Source: Alphaproteobacteria bacterium
GTDB lineage: Bacteria > Pseudomonadota > Alphaproteobacteria > JAQWUY01
Assembly: GCA_029250225.1 (NCBI GenBank)
Contig: JAQWUY010000027.1
Location: forward strand, 9,917 to 73,916
DNA length: 64,000 nucleotides
Direction: 5' to 3'
In this document: piece by piece, positions 31,822 through 63,462 of the stretch
Numbering within the stretch: position 1 is the first letter of the stretch
How the letters are laid out: each line of letters opens with the position of its first letter
Program-made: the position numbers and the translations under genes
The notes under the pieces: model-generated
Databases searched by the model: none
Seen by the model: the letters and a program-made list of their open reading frames with translations, nothing else
What the model was told of the DNA's origin: nothing

Positions 31822-33525
31822 CTAAAAATGCTTTATTAAACTCAAACCTATCGACTTGTCATAAACAGATTTCATACCGTGTTTTTCTGTATAATTTAAC
31901 GATGCTTTCAGCAACGTATTTGAAGCAAGTAAAACAGATATCCCGCCACTAATAGATCTTGCACTAACATTTTTACTTTCCACTGATGTGGGGTTTTTTC
32001 TATACAATTTCGAAAAACTAGCTGATAAAAATGGGGTAAATATATTACCTTTTATTACTTCGGGTTTAAAATTATATTCGGCATAAACACTATATCCTTC
32101 ATCACCCGTAAAACCATCACCAATTAACCCTTGAACTTTTTCAAAACCAGTAGCAATATATTGTTGACTAGATAATACTGGATTATTAAAAGTATATTGA
32201 AAATTAAATACAAATTTAAACTTTTCTCTGCTTAATAGATCTTTTAAAAATTTATAACTACCAATAAGGCGAGAGGCTGAACCCGTTACTCCGGAACGCG
32301 ACGAAGAAATACCGTTTATTGTATTATATTTTGCACCCAAATCATTTATTGATTTATTCAAAGAAAATTTAGTTTTATGCACTCCTTGTGTTGTTTTAAT
32401 AGTATGCTCACCAACAAGTGTAGCCTCCGCAATCGTATCTTTATATTGGTAAGTATTAGTATTTTTATTCTTCATTGTACTATTAGTATATTGAACACCA
32501 GCAGAAACATAAGATTGCTCTGAATAATTCAAAATAAGAGGCTTAGTATACATCACGCCAATATTTCTATTTTGACTATAAGAATTATAATTGTTGCTTG
32601 TAATAGAAGATGAAATAGATTGTAATAAAGACATTTCAATAGATGAACCTGTTATATAATATCTATTATATAACAATGTAAGGGAACGATAATAAGTGTT
32701 TGATGTTTGCTTTAACGAGAATGACGGTATTATTTTAATCGATTGACCGACATCATTTTTAACAAAATTATTAATTTTCATAATTTGTATCGAATAGCTT
32801 CCATACCTAGCATTTAGATTATTTTTAATAGAGGTTAAAAATTGTTTATCTTTATATGAAACCTTCACATTAACAATAAAGCCTCCTTGATTTTTCCCTC
32901 GACTTAAAAAAATCTTGCTAGATAAACCATACAAACCTTTAAGAATTAACATTTTTTCATTAATAGTTTTCACATCAATATATTCTTTATTTTTCAATGG
33001 GTCTAATATATTGAGAATTGCCTGTTCAACATTTCCATCTTCTTTTTTATCATTTTCTATAACAATATTCTCAATAATACCGCTAATAATGTATACCACT
33101 GGTTTTGCTTTTTTCGCTTCAAAACTCTGTGCTGGAAAAACAACGCGAACCATAGGATAGCCTATCATTACAAAATCTTTCTCCAATTGTTTTAGAAATC
33201 CAACCAGATCTTTTATCTTTATTTTTTGGTCTACTATCTGCTTTGTTTTATTATTTACAAAATCAACAATATTTTTAGGAGCTTTTATACTATATTTGTA
33301 ATCTATGGATTCTAAATATAAAGATGTTTTATTGTTTTCTAGCGCTCCAAAATCAGCACCAGATAAAGAGGGAATATTAATATTTCCCTTTTCGCCAATA
33401 ATATTTTTAATATCGCTCTCAAACTCTTTATTTGAATCTTTAGTATTAAATAAAGACACTCCCTCTGCCTTTAAGGGCAAGGGGACCAACAAGATCACCA
33501 AAAGAACGATAATTTTTTTAAACAA
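31822..33525 (-). CDS. two-partner secretion outer-membrane transporter (TpsB; ShlB/FhaC-family)
   Basis: 567 aa. It has a signal peptide (MFKKIIVLLVILLVPLPLKA), a POTRA-like N-terminal region and a beta-strand-rich C-terminal domain ending in an aromatic residue. It lies immediately downstream of the TpsA gene with a 35-nt gap. Confidence 0.65.
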   Translation of the reverse strand: MFKKIIVLLVILLVPLPLKAEGVSLFNTKDSNKEFESDIKNIIGEKGNINIPSLSGADFGALENNKTSLYLESIDYKYSIKAPKNIVDFVNNKTKQIVDQKIKIKDLVGFLKQLEKDFVMIGYPMVRVVFPAQSFEAKKAKPVVYIISGIIENIVIENDKKEDGNVEQAILNILDPLKNKEYIDVKTINEKMLILKGLYGLSSKIFLSRGKNQGGFIVNVKVSYKDKQFLTSIKNNLNARYGSYSIQIMKINNFVKNDVGQSIKIIPSFSLKQTSNTYYRSLTLLYNRYYITGSSIEMSLLQSISSSITSNNYNSYSQNRNIGVMYTKPLILNYSEQSYVSAGVQYTNSTMKNKNTNTYQYKDTIAEATLVGEHTIKTTQGVHKTKFSLNKSINDLGAKYNTINGISSSRSGVTGSASRLIGSYKFLKDLLSREKFKFVFNFQYTFNNPVLSSQQYIATGFEKVQGLIGDGFTGDEGYSVYAEYNFKPEVIKGNIFTPFLSASFSKLYRKNPTSVESKNVSARSISGGISVLLASNTLLKASLNYTEKHGMKSVYDKSIGLSLIKHF

Positions 33526-33560: not shown

Positions 33561-36434
33561 TTAATTTTTTAAATTATTATTAATATACGTTACATTTGAA
33601 ATTTCTTTTTTCTTAATATATTTAATTTTTTTCTTAACATTACCATTTTCGCTATCAGTAATTTTATATCTATTTGTTTTCATAAAATCAAATTTTTGCA
33701 ATCCTGTTTTTGATTTATATTTATAATTATTAGCTTTAATTGTAGTGTCTTCATTAGTATTAATTATAAAGCCATCATTAATATTAATTATAGAGTCTTC
33801 ATTGGTATTAATCATAGAGTCATCATTAGTATTAAGTGTAGAATCATCATTAGTATTAATTATAGAGTCGTCATTAATAATTAATTCTTTTTCATTAGAT
33901 CCACCCCACATATTAATTTCAACATTATTATTATTACTAATATTTTGTATAAGAGAAGCAATGTCAGAGTTAAAGGAAATTAATTCATTCTCTGTGCCTA
34001 AAGTGGTTTTTGAAGTAATATCATTGTTTTCCTGAGCCACCTCGGTAAGTTCATAATTATCTGCACTTTTAGAAACTAAGCATCTCGAATTATTAAAGAC
34101 ACAATAATTATTTAATCTGTTTTTTAATTTTAAAAATAATTGATCGGTTTTAATTTTATCAATATATCTTACTTGACCGTTTCTAAATTCAGGTAAATCA
34201 AACAGGTATACTGCACCTTTTTTTCTATTAATGCCATAAGCACCAACAGCAAGTTTATAACCATCTGCATCGCTACCAATTAAGCTTACCGAAGAACCGA
34301 AATAGTCACGAAAATGCAACCTACTTTCTGGGTTTAAATTTAATTGTTTTTTACCAATTTTATCAACATATCTTACTTGACCGTTTCTAAATTCAGATAA
34401 ATCAAAAAGGTATACTGCACCCTTTTTTCTATTAATGCCATAAGCACCAACAGCAAGTTTATAACCATCTGCATCGTTACCAATTAAGCTTACCGAAGAA
34501 CCGAAATTATCCCTATTATGCAACCTACTTTCTGGGTTTAAATTTAATTGTTTTTTACCAATTTTATCGACATATGTTATTAGGCCATTTCTAAGATTAT
34601 CTACATTAAACAAGTATACCGAACCTCTATATTTACTATCTCCATAAGCACCAACAGCAAGTTTATAATCACCCGTATCGTCAGCAACTAAGCTCACCGA
34701 AGAATTAAAATAATCGTAATTATGTAACTTGTTTTCTTTTTTATATCTAAATAATAAATTTAAATAGCTAATATTCTTCATTTTACTAACAAGAAGATTT
34801 TTAGGGTCTAACAATACTGTTCCAAAAGATTGACCAGAAACCTCCACTTTTGAAAATTTATATGATCTTGAAGATTTTTTACCAAATACTTGTACCCAGC
34901 CTCCATCATTAAAACCATTAGCTTTAATATTACCAAATTGTTGTGTTACACCATTCGACCATAAAACAACTGTACCACCATCTCCATTTACACTAGATGC
35001 ATCAACAAGTGCATCATACCCCAAAGATGTTTTATAAGAAGTTGGTAGATTTAAAAGGTTATCACCAAATACAGATGTCCAACGATCACGGAAACCTGTT
35101 AATACATTTTCGTCATACTCTTCAGATAGATTTCCCCCTCCAAATTCACCGCCTATACGAATTAAACCACCGGCTCTGTAACCTGTTGCAATAATTTTAG
35201 TACCATCCATCACAATAATATTACCATTATCAGTCGAAATATCAATTAAACCACCACGACCAGAAAAACCAGAGGCTGAAATTTTACCCTGTGTAATCAA
35301 TCGTTTTGAACCCGTATTAATACGAATAATGCCACCATCACCATTACCGTCTGATAGTATATTAGATTTTGCAAAAATATTAATATCTGAGTTAGATGAT
35401 ATAGATACTGCACCACCGCTAGAAGCAGGGGCTTTACCAGATGCATCTATCAAGCCTGTCTGAGTGTAAGAAGTAGAAGTAATATTTACATCACCTCCTT
35501 TTACATTAATAACATCACTAGAAACATCAACTGTGCCATTAAGGGAAACATCAGGCCCACTAATAATAATTTTACCTCTATCGGAAGAGGATACCGATTT
35601 TGCCTGAACAAGACCACGAATGTTTATAACTCGACGAAGGGTTTTTCTAACTGTGCCAACACTTAATTTTACTAAACCACCATATGATATAACTTTACCG
35701 CCATTATTTACGGAAATTATTTCTGATAATTTAATTCCATTAACATCCCTAATTGTATTTAAATTACTTGTTGGAATTTCAACACGCAAAAATTCAGAGT
35801 CACCTATGTTGAGAATGACCTTTTCTCCTGCACCGAAACCGACTTTACTTAAATGAGCCGTTACAACACCACCATTATCAATCGCACCGCCAAGTAAGGC
35901 AACAAAACCGCCATCATTAACCGCTATACTGCCGTTGTTTGTAACCACAGCACCAGCCTTTCCTGATTGCTTTACAAAAGATAGTTCTCCCCTTTTAAAA
36001 TCTTCGTTAGAAATATCTAGTGTAGAAGCCGAAAAAGAATTTGTATTAATAAGCCCATTTTCTGTGATTAAAATACCATTAGGATTAACTAAAAAAATCT
36101 GACCATTGGCTTTAATTCGTCCTGCTATGGTAGAGGGCGTAGAACCTAAAACACGATTTAAAGATTGTGATTGCGTTCTGGGTTGAACAAATTCAACCAA
36201 TTTATTTTGACCGACATCAAATGAACTCCAATCAATAATTGTCTTATCTGTATATTGATTAACTTTAATAAAATCTCGACCTTGGTTAATGCTAGCCTCA
36301 CCAGACTTTACAATACCACCGATTGGCAGTTCAGATGCCAAAACATCTCCACCCAATAAAAAGAAAAAAGATAAGAAAAACGAACACGACTTAATTATTC
36401 TCATCAAATTTTTATGCGAATTAAACATAACCAT
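33561..36434 (-). CDS. two-partner-secreted exoprotein (TpsA; filamentous haemagglutinin-type) with FG-GAP repeat C-terminal region
   Basis: 957 aa. An extended signal peptide is followed by a canonical TPS secretion domain (NRVLGSTPSTIAGRIKANGQIFLVNPNGI). A Gly/Asn-rich beta-helix region follows. Then come 3.5 copies of a roughly 68-aa FG-GAP-like repeat (FGSSVSLIGNDADGYKLAVGAYGINRKKGAVYLF). The protein ends in an Asn/Asp-rich decapeptide tandem repeat (NDDSIINTND). Confidence 0.8.
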   Translation of the reverse strand: MVMFNSHKNLMRIIKSCSFFLSFFFLLGGDVLASELPIGGIVKSGEASINQGRDFIKVNQYTDKTIIDWSSFDVGQNKLVEFVQPRTQSQSLNRVLGSTPSTIAGRIKANGQIFLVNPNGILITENGLINTNSFSASTLDISNEDFKRGELSFVKQSGKAGAVVTNNGSIAVNDGGFVALLGGAIDNGGVVTAHLSKVGFGAGEKVILNIGDSEFLRVEIPTSNLNTIRDVNGIKLSEIISVNNGGKVISYGGLVKLSVGTVRKTLRRVINIRGLVQAKSVSSSDRGKIIISGPDVSLNGTVDVSSDVINVKGGDVNITSTSYTQTGLIDASGKAPASSGGAVSISSNSDINIFAKSNILSDGNGDGGIIRINTGSKRLITQGKISASGFSGRGGLIDISTDNGNIIVMDGTKIIATGYRAGGLIRIGGEFGGGNLSEEYDENVLTGFRDRWTSVFGDNLLNLPTSYKTSLGYDALVDASSVNGDGGTVVLWSNGVTQQFGNIKANGFNDGGWVQVFGKKSSRSYKFSKVEVSGQSFGTVLLDPKNLLVSKMKNISYLNLLFRYKKENKLHNYDYFNSSVSLVADDTGDYKLAVGAYGDSKYRGSVYLFNVDNLRNGLITYVDKIGKKQLNLNPESRLHNRDNFGSSVSLIGNDADGYKLAVGAYGINRKKGAVYLFDLSEFRNGQVRYVDKIGKKQLNLNPESRLHFRDYFGSSVSLIGSDADGYKLAVGAYGINRKKGAVYLFDLPEFRNGQVRYIDKIKTDQLFLKLKNRLNNYCVFNNSRCLVSKSADNYELTEVAQENNDITSKTTLGTENELISFNSDIASLIQNISNNNNVEINMWGGSNEKELIINDDSIINTNDDSTLNTNDDSMINTNEDSIININDGFIINTNEDTTIKANNYKYKSKTGLQKFDFMKTNRYKITDSENGNVKKKIKYIKKKEISNVTYINNNLKN
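33740..33895. repeat. about five tandem copies of a 30-bp repeat inside tpsA (encoding NDDSxINTND)
   Basis: The unit ATCATTAGTATTAATTATAGAGTCTTC is visible by eye (33745-33890). A reverse-strand ORF with a reiterated peptide (ESSLVLII x4) mirrors it. Confidence 0.75.
34150..34760. repeat. about four tandem copies of a 204-bp repeat inside tpsA (FG-GAP repeat units); first two copies nearly identical
   Basis: Copy starts lie at about 34166 and 34370 (period 204 bp) and differ by only a few nucleotides. Copies at about 34560 onwards are progressively diverged. Confidence 0.8.
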
Positions 36435-51369: not shown

Positions 51370-52140
51370 TTATACCTCTATTTCATCATTACCGTATAAA
51401 TCTTTAAATCCTTTTTCGACTTGCGAAATATATTCAGGGTCACCATCTCGCCAATATTTTGGATTATCCATCATTTTATAAAGACCAGCTTGGGTAATAC
51501 CAGATGCTTGATTATTATCAGTTATTGGAAATTCTCGTGACGATTCCATCATTGCATACAAATTTTTAATTCCTTTTACATCATATGATAATTCATCAAA
51601 AGTTGTTTTATTTAAATTTGCACTTCCCCAATTTGCAATATCTAGTTTTATTTTTTCCCATTTTTCAACTCCCCCAAAATGCAACGATAGCTCTTGCTCC
51701 ATTAACTCGATTTTTTCATTGGCGATTTGATTTAGTTCTTCCCCCATATACTCATTCGCCATTTCATATACTTTTTGAGCTTGGGCTTGTGAAAAACCAT
51801 TTTCAATCATTTGTTGCTCTAAATCATTATTACGACTTATATTCATTTCATCTATATTTATATCATATCCTTGTTCAGGTATAACATTGTTATCATCAAC
51901 TTGCTGTTCAATGTCCTTGTCTTGTGAATAAAATTTCTTTTCCAATTCACTATACGACTTTAATATTTGTTCATACTGTATTTTACCATCTTTGATAAAT
52001 TTTTCAGGTACATTATCAATAGAAATATTTTCCTGTGTAACCCTATCACTATCAGTTTCACCTTGCTCAGATAACATAACATTATCCGTATTTTTATCTT
52101 CATTTGCACTATTTAAATTTTCGCTGTTAATCTCTACCAT
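51370..52140 (-). CDS. hypothetical acidic protein (pI strongly acidic, Glu/Asp/Gln-rich)
   Basis: 256 aa. It has good translation signals: an AAGGAAGGA Shine-Dalgarno 10 nt before the ATG and a TTGACA-N17-TATTAA promoter upstream. I recognise no family. Its composition is reminiscent of scaffold, chaperone or effector-type acidic proteins. Confidence 0.5.
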   Translation of the reverse strand: MVEINSENLNSANEDKNTDNVMLSEQGETDSDRVTQENISIDNVPEKFIKDGKIQYEQILKSYSELEKKFYSQDKDIEQQVDDNNVIPEQGYDINIDEMNISRNNDLEQQMIENGFSQAQAQKVYEMANEYMGEELNQIANEKIELMEQELSLHFGGVEKWEKIKLDIANWGSANLNKTTFDELSYDVKGIKNLYAMMESSREFPITDNNQASGITQAGLYKMMDNPKYWRDGDPEYISQVEKGFKDLYGNDEIEV

Positions 52141-53400: not shown

Positions 53401-53434
53401 AAAAAAAAGCCCCACCAAATGGCAGGGCTTTTAT
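53401..53434 (-). terminator. rho-independent terminator downstream of the surface-protein gene
   Basis: The minus strand reads AAAAGCCCTGCCATTTGGTGGGGCTTTTTTTT. The stem AGCCC(T)GCCA/TGGTGGGGCT is followed by a T-run of at least 8. Confidence 0.7.
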
Positions 53435-53463: not shown

Positions 53464-54975
53464 TTATTGATATGTTACATCGTAAGTAAATTCCTTCGCA
53501 TTATACTTAGTTCCACCTTCTAATTTCAATTTAATTTTTATTGTTCCTGAATTACCAGCACCAGTGCTAGTAGGATTAGCGACTAATTTATTCCCCGTAA
53601 AGCTACCTGTATTAATACCTGTAATCCCACCATCATCTGTCACCTCAAATGATAGAGTACCCATTTCAGTTGCATTATAAGCTACTTCACTTGAGCCGTT
53701 AGAAGAAGTAGAAAGTTTAAGATTACTTGCAGTAGGAAGAGTATATTGAGCACTATCAGCAATAGTAAGGTTAGAACCACTCAAACTAGAACCCAAATAA
53801 CCATAAGGATTGTTAGCACGATTAATTGTAACATTATAATCAACTGTTTTTTCATTATACTTATTATTAGTCGTAATTACTGCTCGAATTTTTATAGTGG
53901 TAGAAGTACCTGAACTGATAGTTGCACCGCTAAGGCTAAGAGTGCTACCTGAAATTGTCGCATTTGTAGTATTGTTTGCGTTGTTTATTGAGTATCTTAC
54001 CGTACCCATTGTATTAGAGGCATATCCAGTGCTACTAGCTAAAGCAACATCAACAGTACCGCCTAAAGTTGCTGTAAAACTAGGAGCGGTAATAGTTATG
54101 TTTTGTTTATCAAACTCTACATTGTATGTTCCAACATTACCAGAATTATACTTAGTACCGCCAGATGCTGATACTGTAACAGTTACTGAACCGGATTGAT
54201 CAGCAGAAACAACACCATTACTTATACTAAAACCAGAAGTACCCGACGGAATTGCATATGTAAGCGAACCCATTTCAGTTGTATTATAACTAGATGGTGT
54301 TACTGCTGCCACTGTTGTTCCCCATGCTACTGAGGTAGGGTTGCTAAATGATAATGCAGTTGCAGATTGTCTATCAAATGTTATAGTGTATGATCCAATA
54401 GTAGCACCAATGTATTGATTACCACCAAGTGTTGTTACTCGAACATTAATTGTACCAAATGAAGTAGCACCAGAAGCCACACCTGTAGAGCTATTCACAG
54501 AAGCACCAGTATTATTTGTGCCAATAATAGTATATGCATAAGCACCATATTTAGCTGAATTATAATCATTTGGAGCCGTAATAAGACTACTAGGCGAAGC
54601 GGAATTAGCATAAGAACTACCTGAAGCAATCACAGTTGCAGGATTTCCACTTACATTAAAACCACTCGGTGCATTAGTATTAATTGTAACATTATAATCA
54701 ACTGTTGCTGCATTATAATAACCATTAGCCGCAATTATTGCTCGAATTTGTATAGTGGCAGAAGTACCTGAACTGATAGTTGCACCGCTAAGGCTAAGAG
54801 TACTACCTGAAATTGTCGCACCTGTAGTATTGCCTGTGCTGTTTATTGAGTATGTTACCGCACCCATTGTACTAGAATCGTATCCAGTGCTACTAGCTAA
54901 AGCAACATCAACAGTACCGCCTATAGTTGCTGTAAAACTAGGAGCGGTAATACTTGTAATAACTAATCTTTTTTC
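53464..54975. repeat. tandem duplication of an approx. 860-bp unit within the surface-protein gene
   Basis: The ORF-track frames at 53897-54199 and 54755-55060 translate to about 85%-identical peptides offset by 858 bp. At the protein level, residues about 315-603 correspond to about 604-817. Confidence 0.8.
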
Positions 54976-55917
54976 TAAGTACACTTTATTTTCGCGTATA
55001 ACTTCGTCATATCTTTTATCCCAAACTTTTGTAGCGCTTGGGGTAGTATTTACTCGTTGATTTAACTTTTCTCCAAAATTATATTTAAAATTTAAAAATA
55101 ATTCTTCAGAAGAATTATTTTGATCAGAATTATCATACTCACCACCGAAACTTATGTGCGGTGTTAAAAAATATTCCGCGCGCAATTTAACCCCTGATTT
55201 CCTATCGACATCGCCAGAAAAACTATATCTTTTCAAATTAATTTTTAAATTATCAACCTTTGGCATTCTTCCGGAAACACCAAAATCATGACCATTTAAA
55301 ACTCTCTCACCATTCATAAAAGCAGATTGCCCTCTTTGGTATAAATTTCCATAAAAATCGTATTTAGGTGTACTCAGACTTAAGCCAAGTGAATGCCTAG
55401 AATGTGGTGATGAAAATAAATTAGATGACGAAAGCAAACCATCTTGAGAGCTTTTTAAATCATAAAATGTATTAATCTCAAGCATAGCTTCTTTACCACC
55501 AACAAAATCTTTGAATTCAGGAGAAACATCTACCAATGTACGATGTCCTAAACCAATGTTTAAAGTTTTGCCATTATTTGAATCATATGTAAAGTTTCCC
55601 TGAAGAAAAGAAAGTTTTTTTAATGTTTCATTAAGTACTATAAAACCTGAAAAATTGTATTCTGAAAAAGATTGCATACCACCTTTAACCCACTTTATAC
55701 CTAGGTTATCGGCGTCTTTATTTATTTTCTCAATTAATTTTTGGCTAAATAAAGAATAGGGATTTACTTCACTAGTAATCTGTTTTTCACTTTCATATGC
55801 TATTTTATCATCATATGTAATTCCATCAGCATATGTCAATGAAGTGAAATTTTGAGATATTATCAAAATAGAATAAATTGAAATAAAAGAAATAAGTTTA
55901 TATATATATTTTGTCAT
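53464..55917 (-). CDS. large surface protein with N-terminal beta-rich outer-membrane domain and C-terminal tandem Ig-like (Big-type) repeats; inverse-autotransporter (intimin/invasin)-like architecture
   Basis: 817 aa. A signal peptide (MTKYIYKLISFISIYSILIISQNFTSLTYA) is followed by about 280 aa with alternating-hydrophobic beta-strand patterns (YFLTPHISFGGEY; LFLNFKYNF). Five Ig-like modules of about 95 aa follow. They are organised as a roughly 290-aa three-module unit present in about 1.8 tandem copies (ITAPSFTAT(I/L)GGTVDVALASSTGY...VDYNVTIN). Confidence 0.5.
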   Translation of the reverse strand: MTKYIYKLISFISIYSILIISQNFTSLTYADGITYDDKIAYESEKQITSEVNPYSLFSQKLIEKINKDADNLGIKWVKGGMQSFSEYNFSGFIVLNETLKKLSFLQGNFTYDSNNGKTLNIGLGHRTLVDVSPEFKDFVGGKEAMLEINTFYDLKSSQDGLLSSSNLFSSPHSRHSLGLSLSTPKYDFYGNLYQRGQSAFMNGERVLNGHDFGVSGRMPKVDNLKINLKRYSFSGDVDRKSGVKLRAEYFLTPHISFGGEYDNSDQNNSSEELFLNFKYNFGEKLNQRVNTTPSATKVWDKRYDEVIRENKVYLEKRLVITSITAPSFTATIGGTVDVALASSTGYDSSTMGAVTYSINSTGNTTGATISGSTLSLSGATISSGTSATIQIRAIIAANGYYNAATVDYNVTINTNAPSGFNVSGNPATVIASGSSYANSASPSSLITAPNDYNSAKYGAYAYTIIGTNNTGASVNSSTGVASGATSFGTINVRVTTLGGNQYIGATIGSYTITFDRQSATALSFSNPTSVAWGTTVAAVTPSSYNTTEMGSLTYAIPSGTSGFSISNGVVSADQSGSVTVTVSASGGTKYNSGNVGTYNVEFDKQNITITAPSFTATLGGTVDVALASSTGYASNTMGTVRYSINNANNTTNATISGSTLSLSGATISSGTSTTIKIRAVITTNNKYNEKTVDYNVTINRANNPYGYLGSSLSGSNLTIADSAQYTLPTASNLKLSTSSNGSSEVAYNATEMGTLSFEVTDDGGITGINTGSFTGNKLVANPTSTGAGNSGTIKIKLKLEGGTKYNAKEFTYDVTYQ

Positions 55918-56038
55918 TTAGGCCCTGTATTCTTAGAACTTTAGGTTTTTTGTATACATTAAAACACACCTTAAGGGCGTGCATACTTATATATATATTG
56001 ATATATAGATTTATGTCAAGGTGTTTTATAGTGAAAAT

Positions 56039-58737: not shown

Positions 58738-60414
58738 TTAAAACAAGCCTTGGATATTGCCTTTATCATCTAATACGATAGTTTCAGCTGATGGCTTCTT
58801 GGGCAAACCAGGCATTGTCATAATTGCACCTGTAATTGCGACGATGAAACCAGCTCCGGCAGAAAGGCGAACTTCACGAACATTCACACTATGTCCGCTC
58901 GGCGCACCCATTAAAGAAGGATCTGTTGAAAATGACATTTGAGTTTTTGCCATACAAATTGGTAAATTACCGTAACCTTCATCTTCCCATTGTTTTAATT
59001 GTTGGCGTACTTTTGTATCAGCTGTTGCTTCATCAGCACGGTAAATTTCTTTGCAAATTGTGTTAATTTTATCAAATAACGGCATATCATCTTTGTAAAG
59101 TGGTTTAAAGTTTGCTTCACCTTTTTCAACAACACTAACAATATGCTTTGCTAATTCTTTTGTACCTTTCGAACCTTCGCCCCAATGCGTAGCCTCAAAA
59201 GCAACCACACCCATTTTAGTACAAAAATCTTTAACCATTTTTATTTCTGCGTCTGTGTCTAGGATAAATTTATTAATCGCAACTGTTACCGGAACACCAA
59301 ATTTCGCAACATTTTCTAGGTGACGACCTAAATTACACAAGCCGTCTTTTAATGCGTCTAAATCTTCTTGACCTAGTTCATCTTTTTTACGCCCTCCGTG
59401 CATTTTTAATGCTCGAATTGTTGCCACTAATACAACAGCTTCTGGCTTTAAACCTGCTTTGCGACATTTAATATCAAAGAATTTTTCCGCTCCTAAATCA
59501 GCACCAAAACCTGCCTCTGTCACAACATAATCAGCAATTTTTAATGCAGATTTTGTTGCCGAAACTGAATTGCAACCGTGAGCAATATTTGCAAAAGGCC
59601 CACCGTGTACAAATGCAGGATTATTTTCCAATGTTTGCACTAAGTTAGGCATTAATGCTTCTTTCAATAATACAGTCATTGGACCATCGGCTTTTAATTC
59701 GCGGGCTGTAATTGGTTTTTTCTCACGCGTGTAGGCAACAACAATATCACCTAAGCGTTTTTGTAAATCTTGCAAACCATCGGCAAGGCAGAAAATAGCC
59801 ATTACCTCTGATGCTACTGTGATATCAAAACCGGTTTGACGCGGATAACCATTGCCAACTCCACCGATTGAAGAAACAATATCACGCAATGCACGGTCGT
59901 TCATATCTAGGACACGGCGCCATTGGACACGGCGAACATCAATACCCAATTCATTGCCCCAATGAATATGATTATCTAACATAGCAGACAATAAGTTATG
60001 TGCTGATGTAATTGCGTGAAAATCACCAGTAAAATGTAAATTAATATCGTCCATAGGAACAATTTGTGCATAACCGCCACCAGCGGCACCACCTTTTATA
60101 CCAAAGCAAGGGCCTAGTGATGGTTCGCGAAGTGCAACCATTGCATTTTTACCAATTGCATTTAAACCGTCACCCAAACCAACTGTTGTTGTTGTTTTTC
60201 CTTCACCGGCGGGGGTTGGTGAAATCGCTGTGACCAAAATTAACTTGCCATCTTTTTTAGACTTAATACTTTCTAACCATTCAAAAGAAACTTTACCCTT
60301 GTGTGGCCCGAACTGCAATACAGCATCTTGTGGAATTCCTGCTTTTTTTGCAACCTCTATAATTGGTTTCATATTTGCTTTGCGAGCAATCTCAATATCA
60401 CTTTTTACCATCAC
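58738..60414 (-). CDS. fhs: formate--tetrahydrofolate ligase (formyl-THF synthetase)
   Basis: 558 aa. The N-terminus ([24 protein letters not shown]) and the P-loop region ([21 protein letters not shown]) are canonical FTHFS signatures. Confidence 0.9.
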
Positions 60415-60483
60415 ACTCTCCTTTAAACGAAATTCAAATTAATTGTTATAATATAGAACTAAAAAAGTAAAGAAATTTAATTA

Positions 60484-61425
60484 TTATAAATTAACCTTAA
60501 ACCCTTTACCTTTTAAATCAAATTTACCGTCGGCAACGCTATACATCCAATTTGCTGATTTTTTTAACCCCCCTAACGGGTACATATGCATTTGTTTAAT
60601 TAAACAATCTTTGTCCAAATGCGATGCAACAGCTAGTTGGCGAACTAATACATCAGGTTCAGAACAAGGGGCATTAATATATTTACCTATAAATGTATCT
60701 TTTAATATCAATTTTGCTGTGGTGCTTGGTTGCTTTGTAAGCATACGCATTGAGGGGCCAACTCCACACATTTTTGCAAGTTTTAATAAAGTTTTAACAC
60801 TTGCCAAACCGGGAACACCAATATGTATTGGTAATTCGTTACCCGCATCACGAATTCTTTTTTCCCATTTAAGGCAAGGTTCAGATTCAAATGCAAATTG
60901 AGTAGCAATATAAAGTTTCATATCAGTATCTTTTGCATAAGCATTTTTTTCACGAATAGCTTTCATACAATCCGCATCTGGGATATCTGGCGAACCTTCT
61001 GGGTGTCCTGCAACTCCCATTTTTTTAATACCGTATTTTTCAAATAATCCTGTTTTTAAAACTTCCATAGAACAAGAAAAATCTCCGACCTGATTATCAA
61101 CCCCACCGCCTACTAACAATCCTTCTTCTACACCAGTTTCATCTTGTAATAATTGTAAATTTTGCTCTAAAAATTTTGCTGATGGAATAGAGCGGGCTGC
61201 AAAATGGGGAACTGGGTTGAAGCCTTCTTGTTTTAATTTTTTTACAGTTTTTATTGTATCGGCAAAATCTGAATTAGGTAAAAATGTAACATAAACCGTT
61301 GTTCCAGTTCTTAAAATATCGTTAAAATTAGCTATTTTTTCTGCACCTCTTGGTGTTTCTTCAATAGTTGCTTTTTTTACAAAATCTATAATTATTTGTT
61401 TTTCTTGTTCTTTACTTAAATGCAT
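60484..61425 (-). CDS. metF: 5,10-methylenetetrahydrofolate reductase (MetF family)
   Basis: 313 aa TIM-barrel MTHFR-like protein with FAD-binding region blocks (VYVTFLPNS; HFAARSIPSAKFLEQNL; IATQFAFESEP). Confidence 0.75.
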   Translation of the reverse strand: MHLSKEQEKQIIIDFVKKATIEETPRGAEKIANFNDILRTGTTVYVTFLPNSDFADTIKTVKKLKQEGFNPVPHFAARSIPSAKFLEQNLQLLQDETGVEEGLLVGGGVDNQVGDFSCSMEVLKTGLFEKYGIKKMGVAGHPEGSPDIPDADCMKAIREKNAYAKDTDMKLYIATQFAFESEPCLKWEKRIRDAGNELPIHIGVPGLASVKTLLKLAKMCGVGPSMRMLTKQPSTTAKLILKDTFIGKYINAPCSEPDVLVRQLAVASHLDKDCLIKQMHMYPLGGLKKSANWMYSVADGKFDLKGKGFKVNL

Positions 61426-61428
61426 AAG

Positions 61429-63462
61429 CTAACTCCTTCTTCTGCGATTTTGACGCGAAGTTCTTGATTTTGAACTACCGCCTGACGATACTTTTAATTT
61501 TTTAGGTGGCAATTCTACAACTTGTTGTAAATTAATATACGGATCTGAATTATTCGGGATTGCCATTGCATCAACAAAATATCCTTGGAAAGAAGATTCT
61601 AGTGCAGTTTCGATTTTTTCAATTTTACTAACTAGATTTTCAATTTCATTACGAGAATCTTTGTTTAATAAAGCAATCCTTGCACCACTTCCCGCCGAAT
61701 TACCAATTGAACTAACTTCATTCATATTACAATCTGGGATTAAACCTAAAACAAGGGCATATTTAATATCTATGTGTGAACCAAAAGCACCAGCTAGGCT
61801 GATTTTTTCACACTTATCACCGTAGTAATCTTCCATTATTTTACAGCCTGCCCACAATGCACCTTTTGCCAATTGAATTGCCCTTACATCACCTTGTGTA
61901 ATGCGAACTTCAACATCAAGTTCATTAACTGGACGGTGTAATATATAATCAAACACACGACCATTTGGAATAATACGATCGGTTTTTGATGCCATATCAC
62001 CATCAATTATACCATCAGATGATATAATTCCAGCTAGATACATTTGTGCAAGTACCTCAATAATACCAGAACCACAAATTCCAGTTACCCCTATTTTTTT
62101 AACACTTGTATTAAATTCTTCCTCATCAGACCAAAGCTCCGTCCCAATAACAGCAAAGCGTGGTTCAAGTGTTTTTTTGTCAATGCGCACTCTTTCAATT
62201 GCACCTGGTGCCGCCCTTTGTCCGCAAACAATTTGCGCTCCTTCTAGGGCTGGCCCTGTTGGTGAAGAACAAGCAAATAATTTATCTTTATTCCCAAATA
62301 TAATTTCTGCATTTGTACCAACATCAACTATTAAATGCCGTTTTTCACCTTTATCAGGGCGAACTGCCAAGGCAACCGCTGCTGCGTCTGCTCCTACGTG
62401 TCCGGCAATGCAAGGAAGAACATATACAAAACCATTGGGATTTAAATTCAATAAATCACCAAAATCGCTTACTTGTTTGTTAACGGCATTTTCTTCTTCT
62501 AGGTCAAAAGGTGAAAAGCCAAGACCCAAGGGTGATAAACCTAAAAATAAATGGTGCATTACTGGGTTGCCAACTATAACGGTTTCAACAATCAATTGTT
62601 GTGCTTGGGTTTCATTCATATTCGCCAATCCATCACGAATAGATTCACTAAATAGGCTAGATAATGTATCACGAACAACTTTTGTCATTTCTTTATCACC
62701 GCCTTTATTCATCATTGCATATGAAACACGACTCATTAAATCTTCACCAAATCTAATCTGGGGATTCATAGCACCAACAGATGCCATTACTTTACCATCT
62801 TTTAAACGAACTAAATTACACGATATTGTGGTTGAACCTAAGTCAACAGCAAATCCGTAAAGATCTGATTTAGGATTATCTAAGATATCTATCAATCTGT
62901 CATTTCTTACCACAACACCAATTTCATCAGATGTATTATTGAAATCAAAATTAATATTATCGCTGAACGATTTTATATTTAAAGAATGCTCATTACTTAA
63001 TAATTTAATAATATTTTGAATAACATTTTTACTTTTATCAATGTTGGAAATATTCAGCTGATAAACTTGTGTAATTGGCTTTATTTCGATGTCAATCTTT
63101 GTAACGGGTTTGCGAATAACTTGCTTGTGTACTTGGCTATCAGGTGGCACATCTATTACCATATCGCCTTTTAACATAGAGCAACAAGCAAGCCTACGAC
63201 CGTCTTTGATATTACCTTTTTTATTTTGATATTCTGTTTCTGTATCACTCCAACTACTAAGGTTTTTATTTCTAGCATTAATTTTAAACTTTGGGAAATC
63301 GCCTTCGCTAGGTTCAACTTGACATCGTCCACAGATACCACGCCCACCACAAACACTATCAATATCAACTCCTAATGAACGGGCAATATCAAGTAAATTA
63401 GAATTCCGAGAAAATTCACCTCGCTTACCTGAGGGAGTAAAAACTACTTTATACTTATCCAT
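61429..63462 (-). CDS. RACo-like reductive activator of corrinoid proteins (N-terminal plant-type 2Fe-2S ferredoxin + ASKHA-fold ATPase; RamA/AcsV-like)
   Basis: 677 aa. The N-terminal roughly 90 aa carry a 2Fe-2S ferredoxin Cys pattern (CGGRGICGRCQV ... C). The remaining about 550 aa are Gly-rich with actin/ASKHA-like phosphate loops (VDLGSTTISCNLV; DVGTNAEII; GICGSGIIEV). This matches the DUF4445/RACo architecture. Confidence 0.7.
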   Translation of the reverse strand: MDKYKVVFTPSGKRGEFSRNSNLLDIARSLGVDIDSVCGGRGICGRCQVEPSEGDFPKFKINARNKNLSSWSDTETEYQNKKGNIKDGRRLACCSMLKGDMVIDVPPDSQVHKQVIRKPVTKIDIEIKPITQVYQLNISNIDKSKNVIQNIIKLLSNEHSLNIKSFSDNINFDFNNTSDEIGVVVRNDRLIDILDNPKSDLYGFAVDLGSTTISCNLVRLKDGKVMASVGAMNPQIRFGEDLMSRVSYAMMNKGGDKEMTKVVRDTLSSLFSESIRDGLANMNETQAQQLIVETVIVGNPVMHHLFLGLSPLGLGFSPFDLEEENAVNKQVSDFGDLLNLNPNGFVYVLPCIAGHVGADAAAVALAVRPDKGEKRHLIVDVGTNAEIIFGNKDKLFACSSPTGPALEGAQIVCGQRAAPGAIERVRIDKKTLEPRFAVIGTELWSDEEEFNTSVKKIGVTGICGSGIIEVLAQMYLAGIISSDGIIDGDMASKTDRIIPNGRVFDYILHRPVNELDVEVRITQGDVRAIQLAKGALWAGCKIMEDYYGDKCEKISLAGAFGSHIDIKYALVLGLIPDCNMNEVSSIGNSAGSGARIALLNKDSRNEIENLVSKIEKIETALESSFQGYFVDAMAIPNNSDPYINLQQVVELPPKKLKVSSGGSSKSRTSRQNRRRRS

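What the first reader, a model, noticed from the sequence alone, without database searches (positions are those of the whole stretch)
53464..55917. Inverse-autotransporter-like adhesin with a recently duplicated 860-bp (three Ig-like domain) cassette
The 817-aa protein has a signal peptide, then about 280 aa with outer-membrane beta-barrel-like amphipathic strands, then five roughly 95-aa Thr/Ser/Gly-rich modules with Ig-like (Big) character. The beta domain is N-terminal and the repeat passenger is C-terminal. That is the order in intimin/invasin-type inverse autotransporters (type Ve secretion), and it is opposite to classical autotransporters. An approximately 860-bp unit (three modules) is duplicated in tandem with about 85% peptide identity, so it is again a likely site of length variation. 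A clean rho-independent terminator follows the gene, and a TTGACA-N17-ATATAT promoter-like element precedes it. This suggests a monocistronic, independently regulated adhesin gene.
Basis: partly seen in the sequence, partly recalled or inferred. Interest (0 to 1): 0.55.

Follow-up and report, generated by a model that had tools for sequence, protein, structure and literature searches.

The report
Inverse autotransporter with shuffled surface modules
This gene encodes an ordinary "inverse autotransporter" outer-membrane surface protein of an uncultured marine alphaproteobacterium; only one of its five surface modules is duplicated, not a three-module cassette, and the set of modules differs between otherwise near-identical strains.

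Summary
The 817-aa ORF at 53464..55917 (minus strand) is real. It is a member of the inverse autotransporter (type Ve) family. Pfam IAT_beta scores 71 bits against a cut-off of 22.3. The predicted structure has 12 strands in the N-terminal domain. The only outer-membrane structures matched with confidence are the intimin and invasin beta-domains.

The passenger is five beta-sandwich modules of a single ~90-aa repeat family. No Pfam Big model matches them. A profile of the modules and the fold search both point to cadherin-like domains, but without the calcium-binding motifs.

The "860-bp three-module tandem duplication" is wrong. Only one 277-nt module is present twice (54679-54955 and 53821-54097). 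The copies are 90% identical in DNA and 79% in protein, and 858 nt is the spacing between them.

Five orthologous alleles sit at the same locus in marine metagenomes. Their flanks are 98-99% identical, yet the module strings differ: A-B-C-A-E here, and A-C-C-C-E, A-B-A-E, A-x-C-A and A-C-A elsewhere. Some alleles carry true 264/273-nt tandem arrays, and the two A copies show signs of intragenic gene conversion.

The terminator is confirmed. The promoter-like element exists but is ambiguous. This is a new member of a known kind and of modest interest.

The parts
53464..55917 (-). Whole gene, 817 codons plus stop: inverse autotransporter (type Ve) surface protein
   Evidence: ORF list; Pfam IAT_beta E 1.5e-19; intact orthologues at the same locus in five metagenome contigs
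55828..55917 (-). Signal peptide, aa 1-30 (MTKYIYK, hydrophobic core, TYA|D)
   Evidence: Read from the sequence. Predicted helix aa 2-29. L27, Y29 and A30 are nearly invariant in the family. No signal-peptide predictor was available.
55693..55827 (-). Short periplasmic N-terminal segment, aa 31-75, predicted helical at low confidence; no LysM domain
   Evidence: Model; no Pfam hit other than IAT_beta
55075..55692 (-). Beta-barrel, aa 76-281. 12 predicted strands; the last strand and the next four residues, EELFLNFKYNF, end in an aromatic residue
   Evidence: DSSP of model 1 gives 12 strands at pLDDT 50-73. Foldseek hits 4e1s, 5g26 and 4e1t at E 3-6e-6, prob 1.0.
54964..55074 (-). Linker, aa 282-318, holding the family's most conserved motif (W299 D300 R302 Y303 E305 V306 R308 N310 Y313 E315 L318). 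Inferred to pass through or plug the barrel.
   Evidence: Invariant columns. The Pfam IAT_beta match runs to the end of the profile at aa 310. The model is unconfident here, pLDDT <50.
54673..54963 (-). Passenger module 1 (type A), aa 319-415
   Evidence: pLDDT 80-92, 7 strands; repeat-family HMM hit at 320-414
54367..54672 (-). Passenger module 2 (type B), aa 416-517
   Evidence: Model; HMM hit at 428-516
54103..54366 (-). Passenger module 3 (type C), aa 518-605. This module is absent from allele L003 and amplified threefold in alleles L001 and L002.
53815..54102 (-). Passenger module 4 (type A'), aa 606-701, a copy of module 1
53467..53814 (-). Passenger module 5 (type E), aa 702-817. It is the terminal module, and also the terminal module of the two-module relatives P0008-P0016.
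54679..54955 (-). Copy 1 of the 277-nt direct repeat (inside module 1)
   Evidence: the repeat finder family D1; blastn self-hit at 90.25% with no gaps
53821..54097 (-). Copy 2 of the 277-nt direct repeat (inside module 4), 858 nt from copy 1
   Evidence: Between the copies there are 24 nonsynonymous and 3 synonymous differences, dN/dS 2.8, one-sided p 0.065.
53405..53432 (-). Intrinsic terminator: 12-bp stem, then a U-run, 32 nt after the stop codon
55991..56019 (-). Promoter-like element TTGACA-N17-ATATAT. The second hexamer lies in a (TA)n tract whose length differs between alleles.
   Evidence: Sequence; alignment of six alleles. Promoter-like sites are not enriched over shuffles in this AT-rich DNA: 22 found against 16.2 +/- 4.0 expected.
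55964..55982 (-). Small conserved hairpin followed by UUUUAAU, between the promoter-like element and the start codon. It is either the terminator of the upstream arginase operon or a stem-loop at the 5' end of the mRNA.
   Evidence: dG -9.5, z -2.1; conserved core CACC-TTTAA-GGTG
55923..55926 (-). Shine-Dalgarno-like AGGG, 5 nt before the ATG
   Evidence: Read from the sequence; GG is conserved in the alleles

Best explanation
The gene encodes a type Ve (inverse autotransporter) outer-membrane surface protein of an uncultured marine alphaproteobacterium.

Inferred pathway, taken from what is established for intimin, invasin and FdeC:
- The signal peptide takes the protein through Sec.
- The N-terminal domain (about aa 76-281) is inserted by BAM/TAM as a 12-stranded barrel.
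- The conserved linker (aa 282-318) occupies the pore.
- The C-terminal passenger (aa 319-817) is threaded out and folds on the surface as a rod of five beta-sandwich modules.

All five modules belong to one ~90-aa repeat family. It is cadherin-like in fold, lacks Ca2+-binding motifs, and is very rich in Thr/Ser/Gly/Asn/Ala. The most likely role is adhesion, to particles, algal or other cell surfaces, or glycans.

The passenger is a recombination hot spot. Modules are gained, lost, tandemly amplified and homogenised by homologous recombination between repeats and between alleles. Strains with about 98% identical flanks therefore display different module strings. In this window the string is A-B-C-A'-E, and the only recent duplication is the single module A/A'.

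Shown here: family membership of the beta domain, the module architecture, the repeat structure, the allelic diversity and the terminator. Inferred: secretion route, surface exposure, adhesive function and the selective cause of the variability.
For: Beta domain:
- Pfam PF11924 IAT_beta scores 71.1 bits (cut-off 22.3), E 1.5e-19, over aa 64-310 and to the end of the profile.
- The AF2 model has 12 strands at aa 76-277, then five well-predicted beta-sandwiches at pLDDT 80-90.
- Foldseek against the PDB gives the intimin (4e1s, 5g26) and invasin (4e1t) beta-domains at E 3-6e-6, prob 1.0, TMt 0.43-0.50. With the N-terminal model the next outer-membrane proteins are at E > 1e-2.
- The passenger matches tandem cadherin/Ig ectodomains at E about 1e-11.
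- NCBI names a homologue 'inverse autotransporter beta domain-containing protein [Alphaproteobacteria bacterium]'.
- Heinz et al. 2016 (PMC4943183) use the invasin_beta domain as the diagnostic criterion of the family.

Modules:
- An iterated HMM started from module 3 recovers all five modules here and 1-14 per protein in relatives.
- A module profile hits protocadherin-19 (E 6.3e-5) and BT_4661 (E 4.3e-4).
- The passenger contains no DxD or DxNDN motif.

Allelic variation:
- Five orthologues lie between the same arginase and YeiH-like genes.
- Flanks are 97.8-99.3% identical in DNA, the beta-domain DNA 90.6-96.4%, and the terminal module 66-94%.
- Flanking proteins are 97-100% identical against 68% for this protein.
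- Module strings differ between alleles.
- L003 lacks about 264 nt, one module, relative to the window.
- L001 and L002 carry 264- and 273-nt tandem arrays of about 3 copies at 95-96%.
- The two A modules within an allele are more alike (90.5% here, 92.7% in L003) than positional counterparts between alleles (76.6-83.9%).
Against: - Barrel confidence is only moderate (pLDDT 50-73). A second model with more sequences was worse: 11 strands, pLDDT about 50.
- The linker is unmodelled (pLDDT <50), and no coordinates were available to check that it lies inside the pore.
- Sequence searches of the PDB, with the single protein and with a family profile, do not reach intimin or invasin.
- No Big_1, Big_2, Intimin_C or LysM model matches.
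- No binding partner, expression or surface exposure is shown. Adhesion is inferred by analogy only.
- dN/dS > 1 between the A copies is not significant (p 0.065).
- The window comes from a metagenome-assembled genome, and this exact protein is not on record elsewhere. A chimeric assembly across co-occurring alleles in the repeat region cannot be excluded.
Confidence: 0.8

Rival explanations
1. It is the same type Ve surface protein, but the exposed rod does not serve attachment. It could be a glycan-binding or nutrient-capture protein, or a variable surface coat whose diversity is driven by phages or grazers that use it as a receptor.
For: The module profile also hits BT_4661, a SusE-like surface glycan-binding protein. 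The modules lack the Ca2+ motifs used by homophilic cadherin-like adhesins. The passenger is extremely diverse between strains whose flanks are 98-99% identical. More distant relatives sit next to an integrase, or next to a DNA methylase with a second inverse autotransporter, which looks like flexible genomic islands.
Against: Characterised inverse autotransporters are described in the sources read here as adhesins, invasins or biofilm factors (abstracts; PMC4943183). The BT_4661 match is weak (E 4e-4) and short. No ligand-binding tip domain was identified for either reading.
Confidence: 0.15
2. One reading: an ~860-bp cassette of three modules was recently duplicated in tandem, so the passenger is about two copies of a three-module unit.
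For: The two alike modules are 858 nt apart, which is exactly three modules. One could read this as A-B-C followed by a truncated second unit that starts with A'.
Against: Only 277 nt are repeated, and identity is at background immediately outside them. Module 5 is no closer to module 2 (25%) than to any other module. TRF finds no long-period array. Two 860-bp units exceed the ~1,500-nt passenger. Allele L003 has A-B-A'-E, so A' recurs without a three-module period.
Confidence: 0.04
3. The N-terminal domain is a porin or another kind of outer-membrane barrel, and the repeat region is an unrelated periplasmic or surface extension. On this reading it is not a type V secretion protein.
For: Barrel pLDDT is only 50-73 and the linker is not modelled. 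Porins appear among the weak Foldseek hits at E 0.02-0.1.
Against: The Pfam IAT_beta match is 49 bits above its threshold. Intimin and invasin beta-domains beat every other barrel by more than 3 orders of magnitude in E-value. All eight distant relatives tested also carry IAT_beta at the N-terminus. No other OMP family was reported by Pfam or NCBIfam.
Confidence: 0.03
4. The A...A' arrangement in this window is an assembly chimera, created when a metagenome assembler joined reads from co-occurring alleles across the repeated modules.
For: The window matches proteins of an NCBI metagenome-assembled genome. The exact 817-aa product is not on record in any other assembly. At least five alleles coexist in marine samples.
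Against: An independent assembly (L003) has the same A-B...A'-E order. The two copies differ at 27 of 277 positions, enough for assemblers to keep them apart. The reading frame is intact across all junctions.
Confidence: 0.06

Closest known systems
FdeC / YeeJ / SinH-type inverse autotransporters of Enterobacteria. This is the prevalent architecture in the family according to Heinz et al. 2016 (PMC4943183).
   Same: Signal peptide, then an N-terminal IAT_beta barrel, a linker, and a C-terminal string of tandem Ig-like beta-sandwich modules. The module number varies between homologues. There is no lectin tip.
   Different: The modules here do not match Big_1 or Big_2 and look cadherin-like. The protein is much smaller, with 5 modules. 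There is no LysM domain. The host is a marine planktonic alphaproteobacterial MAG with 31% GC. Beta-domain identity to the solved structures is only 17-20%.
Intimin (EaeA) and invasin (InvA), sensu stricto
   Same: The beta-domain fold is the same: 4e1s, 5g26 and 4e1t are the best structural matches. The topology is inverted in the same way.
   Different: No Intimin_C / C-type lectin tip, no Invasin_D3, no LysM. Neither sequence nor profile searches of the PDB reach them. Heinz et al. note that these two are a small, atypical minority of the family.
Bacterial cadherin-like (CHDL / He_PIG-type) adhesin repeats, for example in CabC/CabD of Saccharophagus degradans, RapA2 of Rhizobium and BapP of Pseudoalteromonas (as cited in PMC12153261)
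   Same: Tandem ~90-100-aa Greek-key beta-sandwich repeats in surface proteins of marine or environmental bacteria. There is a profile match to protocadherin repeats (E 6.3e-5) and an end-to-end but non-significant He_PIG alignment (E 0.56).
   Different: There are no DxD or DxNDN Ca2+-binding motifs and only 4% acidic residues. Those proteins use type I secretion or other routes, whereas this one is fused to a type Ve barrel.

Membership tests
Inverse autotransporter (type Ve secretion) | Match to the invasin_beta / IAT_beta domain (PF11924) above the gathering score. Heinz et al. 2016 use this as the diagnostic criterion. | tested here: met
   71.1 bits against a cut-off of 22.3, E 1.5e-19, aa 64-310, profile positions 44-279 of 279. 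The criterion is quoted.
Inverse autotransporter (type Ve secretion) | Inverted order: the beta domain is N-terminal and the passenger C-terminal | tested here: met
   Beta domain at aa 64-310, modules at aa 319-817
Inverse autotransporter (type Ve secretion) | N-terminal Sec signal peptide | tested here: met
   By inspection only. There is a Lys-containing n-region, a 14-residue hydrophobic core and TYA|D. Helix at aa 2-29 in the model. ..AYA is conserved in the family. No dedicated predictor was available.
Inverse autotransporter (type Ve secretion) | 12-stranded beta-barrel superimposable on the intimin and invasin beta-domains | tested here: met
   12 DSSP strands at aa 76-277. Foldseek: 4e1s E 3.2e-6 with TMt 0.50, 4e1t E 4.3e-6, 5g26 E 2.8e-6. 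These are again the top hits with the second model. Confidence is moderate, pLDDT 50-73.
Inverse autotransporter (type Ve secretion) | Linker that runs back through the barrel lumen | tested here: inconclusive
   The linker holds the most conserved motif of the family and is covered by the Pfam profile. It has pLDDT <50 in both models, and coordinates could not be inspected.
Inverse autotransporter (type Ve secretion) | Passenger made of tandem Ig-like domains | tested here: met
   Five beta-sandwich modules at pLDDT 80-90. Tandem cadherin/Ig arrays are the best PDB matches, E about 1e-11.
Inverse autotransporter (type Ve secretion) | Surface exposure of the passenger; dependence on BAM/TAM | not testable with these tools
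   Needs experiments: protease shaving, BamA/TamA depletion
   No hit for the whole protein at E<=1, nor for single modules at E<=10
Intimin / invasin sensu stricto | C-terminal C-type-lectin-like tip (Intimin_C PF07979; Invasin_D3 PF09134 for invasin) | tested here: not met
   No such Pfam hit. The terminal module is another member of the same repeat family.
Intimin / invasin sensu stricto | Periplasmic LysM domain (intimin and some relatives; an optional feature) | tested here: not met
   No LysM hit. Only about 45 aa lie between the signal peptide and the barrel.
Classical (type Va) autotransporter | C-terminal autotransporter beta-domain with an N-terminal passenger | tested here: not met
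   No such Pfam hit. The C-terminus is a beta-sandwich module.
Cadherin-like (CHDL) Ca2+-dependent adhesin repeats | Cadherin-type repeat with DxD / DxNDN Ca2+-binding motifs at the domain junctions | tested here: not met
   Fold and profile similarity are present, but the passenger has no DxD or DxNDN motif.

The most novel reading that the evidence does not exclude
The ~90-aa modules are an undescribed cadherin-like repeat family, absent from Pfam, that so far is seen almost only on inverse autotransporters of a narrow group of AT-rich marine alphaproteobacteria. In a free-living planktonic population this one gene is a recombination and diversifying-selection hot spot: there is module shuffling, tandem amplification, intragenic gene conversion, and dN/dS of about 2.8 between the two A copies. 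If so, it would be a natural marker and test case for phage- or grazer-driven surface variation in marine bacterioplankton.
Probability: 0.3. Interest if true: 0.45.

Novelty: new member of a known kind. Interest (0 to 1): 0.3.

Why it matters
The family assignment is routine. NCBI's pipeline already names homologues as inverse autotransporter beta-domain proteins.

What is mildly useful is the population picture. In an uncultured marine alphaproteobacterium whose neighbouring genes are 98-99% identical between samples, this single surface protein exists in at least six module arrangements. That marks it as a target of strong diversifying pressure and as a handle for strain typing. The passenger modules also form a cadherin-like repeat type that no Pfam model matched at E<=10, and could be added to domain databases.

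It does not open a long-standing question.

Tried and rejected
- Two scans of the GTDB species genomes found no relative, so no named organism was obtained. One used the family alignment and one the neighbouring ornithine cyclodeaminase. Taxonomy rests on NCBI MAG labels, 'Alphaproteobacteria bacterium'.
- An exact-sequence look-up of the window's protein found nothing.
- NCBIfam gave no hit.
- PDB sequence searches with the single protein and with the family profile did not reach intimin or invasin.
- A second AF2 run on aa 1-420 with 28 sequences, meant to sharpen the barrel and linker, was worse than the first.
- Rfam found nothing in the window.
- A database search with the module profile returned only five short fragments and missed the known homologues. 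It says nothing reliable about the spread of the module.
- The idea that module 5 is a diverged copy of module 2, which a three-module period would require, was rejected on pairwise identities.
- A phase-variable promoter based on the (TA)n tract was considered. It was left as an observation, because the tracts are short (about 5-9 units) and the -10 position is uncertain.
Full report
**Observation**

An AGGG lies 5 nt before the ATG. The gene has 34% GC in a window of 31% GC.

The N-terminus, MTKYIYK-LISFISIYSILIIS-QNFTSLTYA|D, has the three regions of a Sec signal peptide. In 20 relatives the consensus before the predicted cleavage site is ..AYA.

The claimed "860-bp unit (three modules) duplicated in tandem" is not there.
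- Tandem Repeats Finder reports no long-period array in the gene.
- The repeat finder and a blastn self-comparison give one ungapped 277-nt direct repeat at 54679-54955 and 53821-54097. It is 90.3% identical, with start-to-start spacing of 858 nt.
- Identity falls to background (23-50% per 30 nt) immediately outside the 277 nt.
- At the protein level, module 1 and module 4 share 73 of 92 residues (79%). Every other pair of modules shares 19-31%.
- So one module, not three, is present twice, and the two copies are separated by two unrelated modules.

**The N-terminal domain**

- Pfam IAT_beta (PF11924) matches aa 64-310 with 71.1 bits (cut-off 22.3), E 1.5e-19, running to the last position of the profile. 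No other outer-membrane protein family was reported by Pfam or NCBIfam.
- An AlphaFold2 model built on 21 family members has 12 beta-strands between aa 76 and 277 at pLDDT 50-73. An unconfident stretch follows at aa 278-320.
- Foldseek against the PDB returns the intimin beta-domain (4e1s at E 3.2e-6 and TMt 0.50; 5g26) and the invasin beta-domain (4e1t at E 4.3e-6).
- With a second model of aa 1-420 those two proteins are again the top hits (E 4-6e-6). The next barrels (porins, TamA, VDAC) start at E 1e-2.
- That second model was less confident than the first.
- The linker holds the family's most conserved residues: W299, D300, R302, Y303, E305, V306, R308, N310, Y313, E315, L318. It could not be placed with confidence, so "embedded linker" remains inferred.
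- Sequence and profile searches of the PDB do not reach intimin or invasin. Identity to them in the structural alignments is 17-20%.
- Heinz et al. 2016 (PMC4943183) take the invasin_beta domain as the diagnostic criterion of the inverse autotransporter family. They note that intimin and invasin are a small, atypical minority of it.
- On that criterion the protein is a member.

**The passenger**

- The model gives five beta-sandwich modules at pLDDT 80-90: aa 319-415, 416-517, 518-605, 606-701 and 702-817.
- An HMM iterated from module 3 over the family recovers all five. They are therefore one repeat family, with 1 to 14 copies per protein in relatives.
- No Big_1 or Big_2 model, nor any other Pfam model, matches significantly, for the whole protein or for single modules. 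The only end-to-end alignment is a non-significant one to He_PIG (E 0.56).
- A profile of 39 diverse modules hits protocadherin-19 (E 6.3e-5) and the SusE-like BT_4661 (E 4.3e-4). The best fold matches of the passenger are cadherin ectodomains (E about 1e-11).
- The modules are thus Ig-like in the broad sense and cadherin-like in particular.
- They contain no DxD or DxNDN Ca2+-binding motif and only 4% Asp+Glu. They are 62% Thr+Ser+Gly+Asn+Ala and have no Cys.
- There is no lectin tip and no LysM domain.

**Relatives and organism**

- Word-indexed searches found 28 relatives, almost all from marine metagenomes. One NCBI entry is named [quoted passage not shown].
- Exact look-ups of eight neighbouring window proteins return NCBI MAG accessions between MDG1153921 and MDG1153931, also labelled Alphaproteobacteria bacterium.
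- A full phmmer scan of 1.84 billion representative proteins with the beta domain finds only 69 clusters at E<=1e-3. The eight distant ones tested all carry IAT_beta at the N-terminus, with passengers unknown to Pfam.
- Two scans of GTDB species genomes found nothing.

**Allelic variation**

Five orthologues (P0001-P0005) lie in the same place as in the window, between the arginase/ornithine cyclodeaminase pair and a YeiH-like transporter. They come from Tara and other marine assemblies.

- Against the window, the 3.8 kb on each side are 97.8-99.3% identical in DNA. The beta-domain DNA is 90.6-96.4% identical and the last module 66-94%.
- Flanking proteins are 97-100% identical, while this protein is 68%.

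Module strings:

| Allele | Module string | Length (aa) |
|---|---|---|
| Window | A-B-C-A'-E | 817 |
| P0001 (L002) | A-C-C-C-E | 806 |
| P0002 (L001) | A-C-C-C-E | 796 |
| P0003 (L003) | A-B-A'-E | 739 |
| P0004 (L004) | A-x-C-A | 706 |
| P0005 (L005) | A-C-A | 596 |

- Colinearity with four alleles breaks at the end of module 1 (window 54678/54679). L003 differs from the window by a one-module gap of about 264 nt.
- L001 and L002 contain genuine tandem arrays of one module: period 264 or 273 nt, about 3 copies, 95-96% matches.
- The two A modules of one allele are more alike (90.5% in the window, 92.7% in L003) than the positionally equivalent modules of the two alleles (83.9% and 76.6%). 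This is the pattern expected from intragenic gene conversion or from independent duplications.
- Between the window's two A copies there are 24 nonsynonymous and 3 synonymous differences. dN/dS is 2.8, with one-sided binomial p 0.065, which is suggestive and not significant.
- Shorter relatives (P0008-P0016) have just A-E, so A-E may be the basal architecture.
- More distant relatives lie in other contexts. One is next to a tyrosine recombinase. Another is beside a DNA methylase and a second, 1755-aa inverse autotransporter.

**Expression signals**

- Downstream, the hairpin at 53432->53405 has a 12-bp stem with 6 GC pairs and a U-run, dG -18.4 kcal/mol and z -4.0. It is a convincing intrinsic terminator.
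- Upstream, TTGACA-N17-ATATAT is present, and the TTGACA is invariant in six alleles.
- Promoter-like matches are not enriched in this AT-rich DNA: 22 found against 16.2 +/- 4.0 expected.
- The second hexamer lies in a (TA)n tract whose length varies between alleles.
- A small conserved hairpin with a U-rich tail (55982->55964, dG -9.5, z -2.1) lies between this element and the ATG. It may terminate the arginase operon or form the 5' end of this gene's mRNA.
- A separate transcription unit is therefore likely but not shown.

**Mechanism and verdict**

The best-supported reading is a type Ve surface protein. It would be exported by Sec, inserted as a 12-stranded barrel, with the passenger threaded out and folding into a five-module rod. 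Its probable role is adhesion, and the module string is reshuffled by recombination in the population.

Family membership, architecture, repeat structure and allelic diversity are shown here. Secretion route, surface exposure, ligand and selective agent are inferred from the family.

The rivals score low.

This is a new member of a known kind. The family call is routine annotation. The Pfam-dark cadherin-like modules and the strain-level module shuffling in a marine planktonic bacterium are the only mildly unusual points.

Noticed in passing
window 33561-36434 (-), with repeats at 34152-34715 and 33729-33886; neighbouring ORF 31822-33525 (-): A second type V secretion locus lies about 18 kb away. 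It is a 957-aa protein with a TPS secretion domain (E 1.7e-26) and FG-GAP repeats. It contains a 204-nt tandem repeat (2.8 copies, 86% matches) and a 24/48-nt repeat. The adjacent 567-aa ORF has no Pfam hit at 1e-5 and might be the TpsB partner.
   Followed up: partly
window 55985-56000 (minus strand), and the same place in L001-L005: The AT-rich tract holding the putative -10 hexamer is a (TA)n run whose length differs between alleles, roughly 5 to 9 or more units. The TTGACA upstream is invariant. Slipped-strand control of expression is conceivable but the tracts are short.
   Followed up: partly
window 55964-55982 (-): A conserved small hairpin with a U-rich tail lies between the promoter-like element and the start codon. 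It could be the terminator of the arginase operon or a stabilising stem-loop at the 5' end of the mRNA.
   Followed up: partly
window 51370-52140 (-): A lone 256-aa gene matches the Pfam phage T7 capsid assembly (scaffold) family (E 2.8e-8). It is conserved at 98% in the L001 allele and present at the same place in L001-L005, with no other phage gene noted among the neighbours examined.
   Followed up: no
L008 10740-16007 and 1351-4354; L007 4881-5810: In more distant relatives the homologous gene sits in island-like contexts. One locus has a second 1755-aa inverse autotransporter next door, with a GapR-like gene, a DNA methylase and an HATPase_c_3 protein. The other has a tyrosine recombinase immediately upstream.
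   Followed up: no
window 58738-63462 (-), and upstream in L001 1-373: A one-carbon / corrinoid cluster: a RACo-type corrinoid activase, an MTHFR-like protein and formate-tetrahydrofolate ligase. In L001 a Pterin_bind/CdhD protein precedes them. Cobalamin biosynthesis genes (CobB in the window; CbiD and CbiJ called in L001) lie on the other side of the adhesin gene.
   Followed up: no
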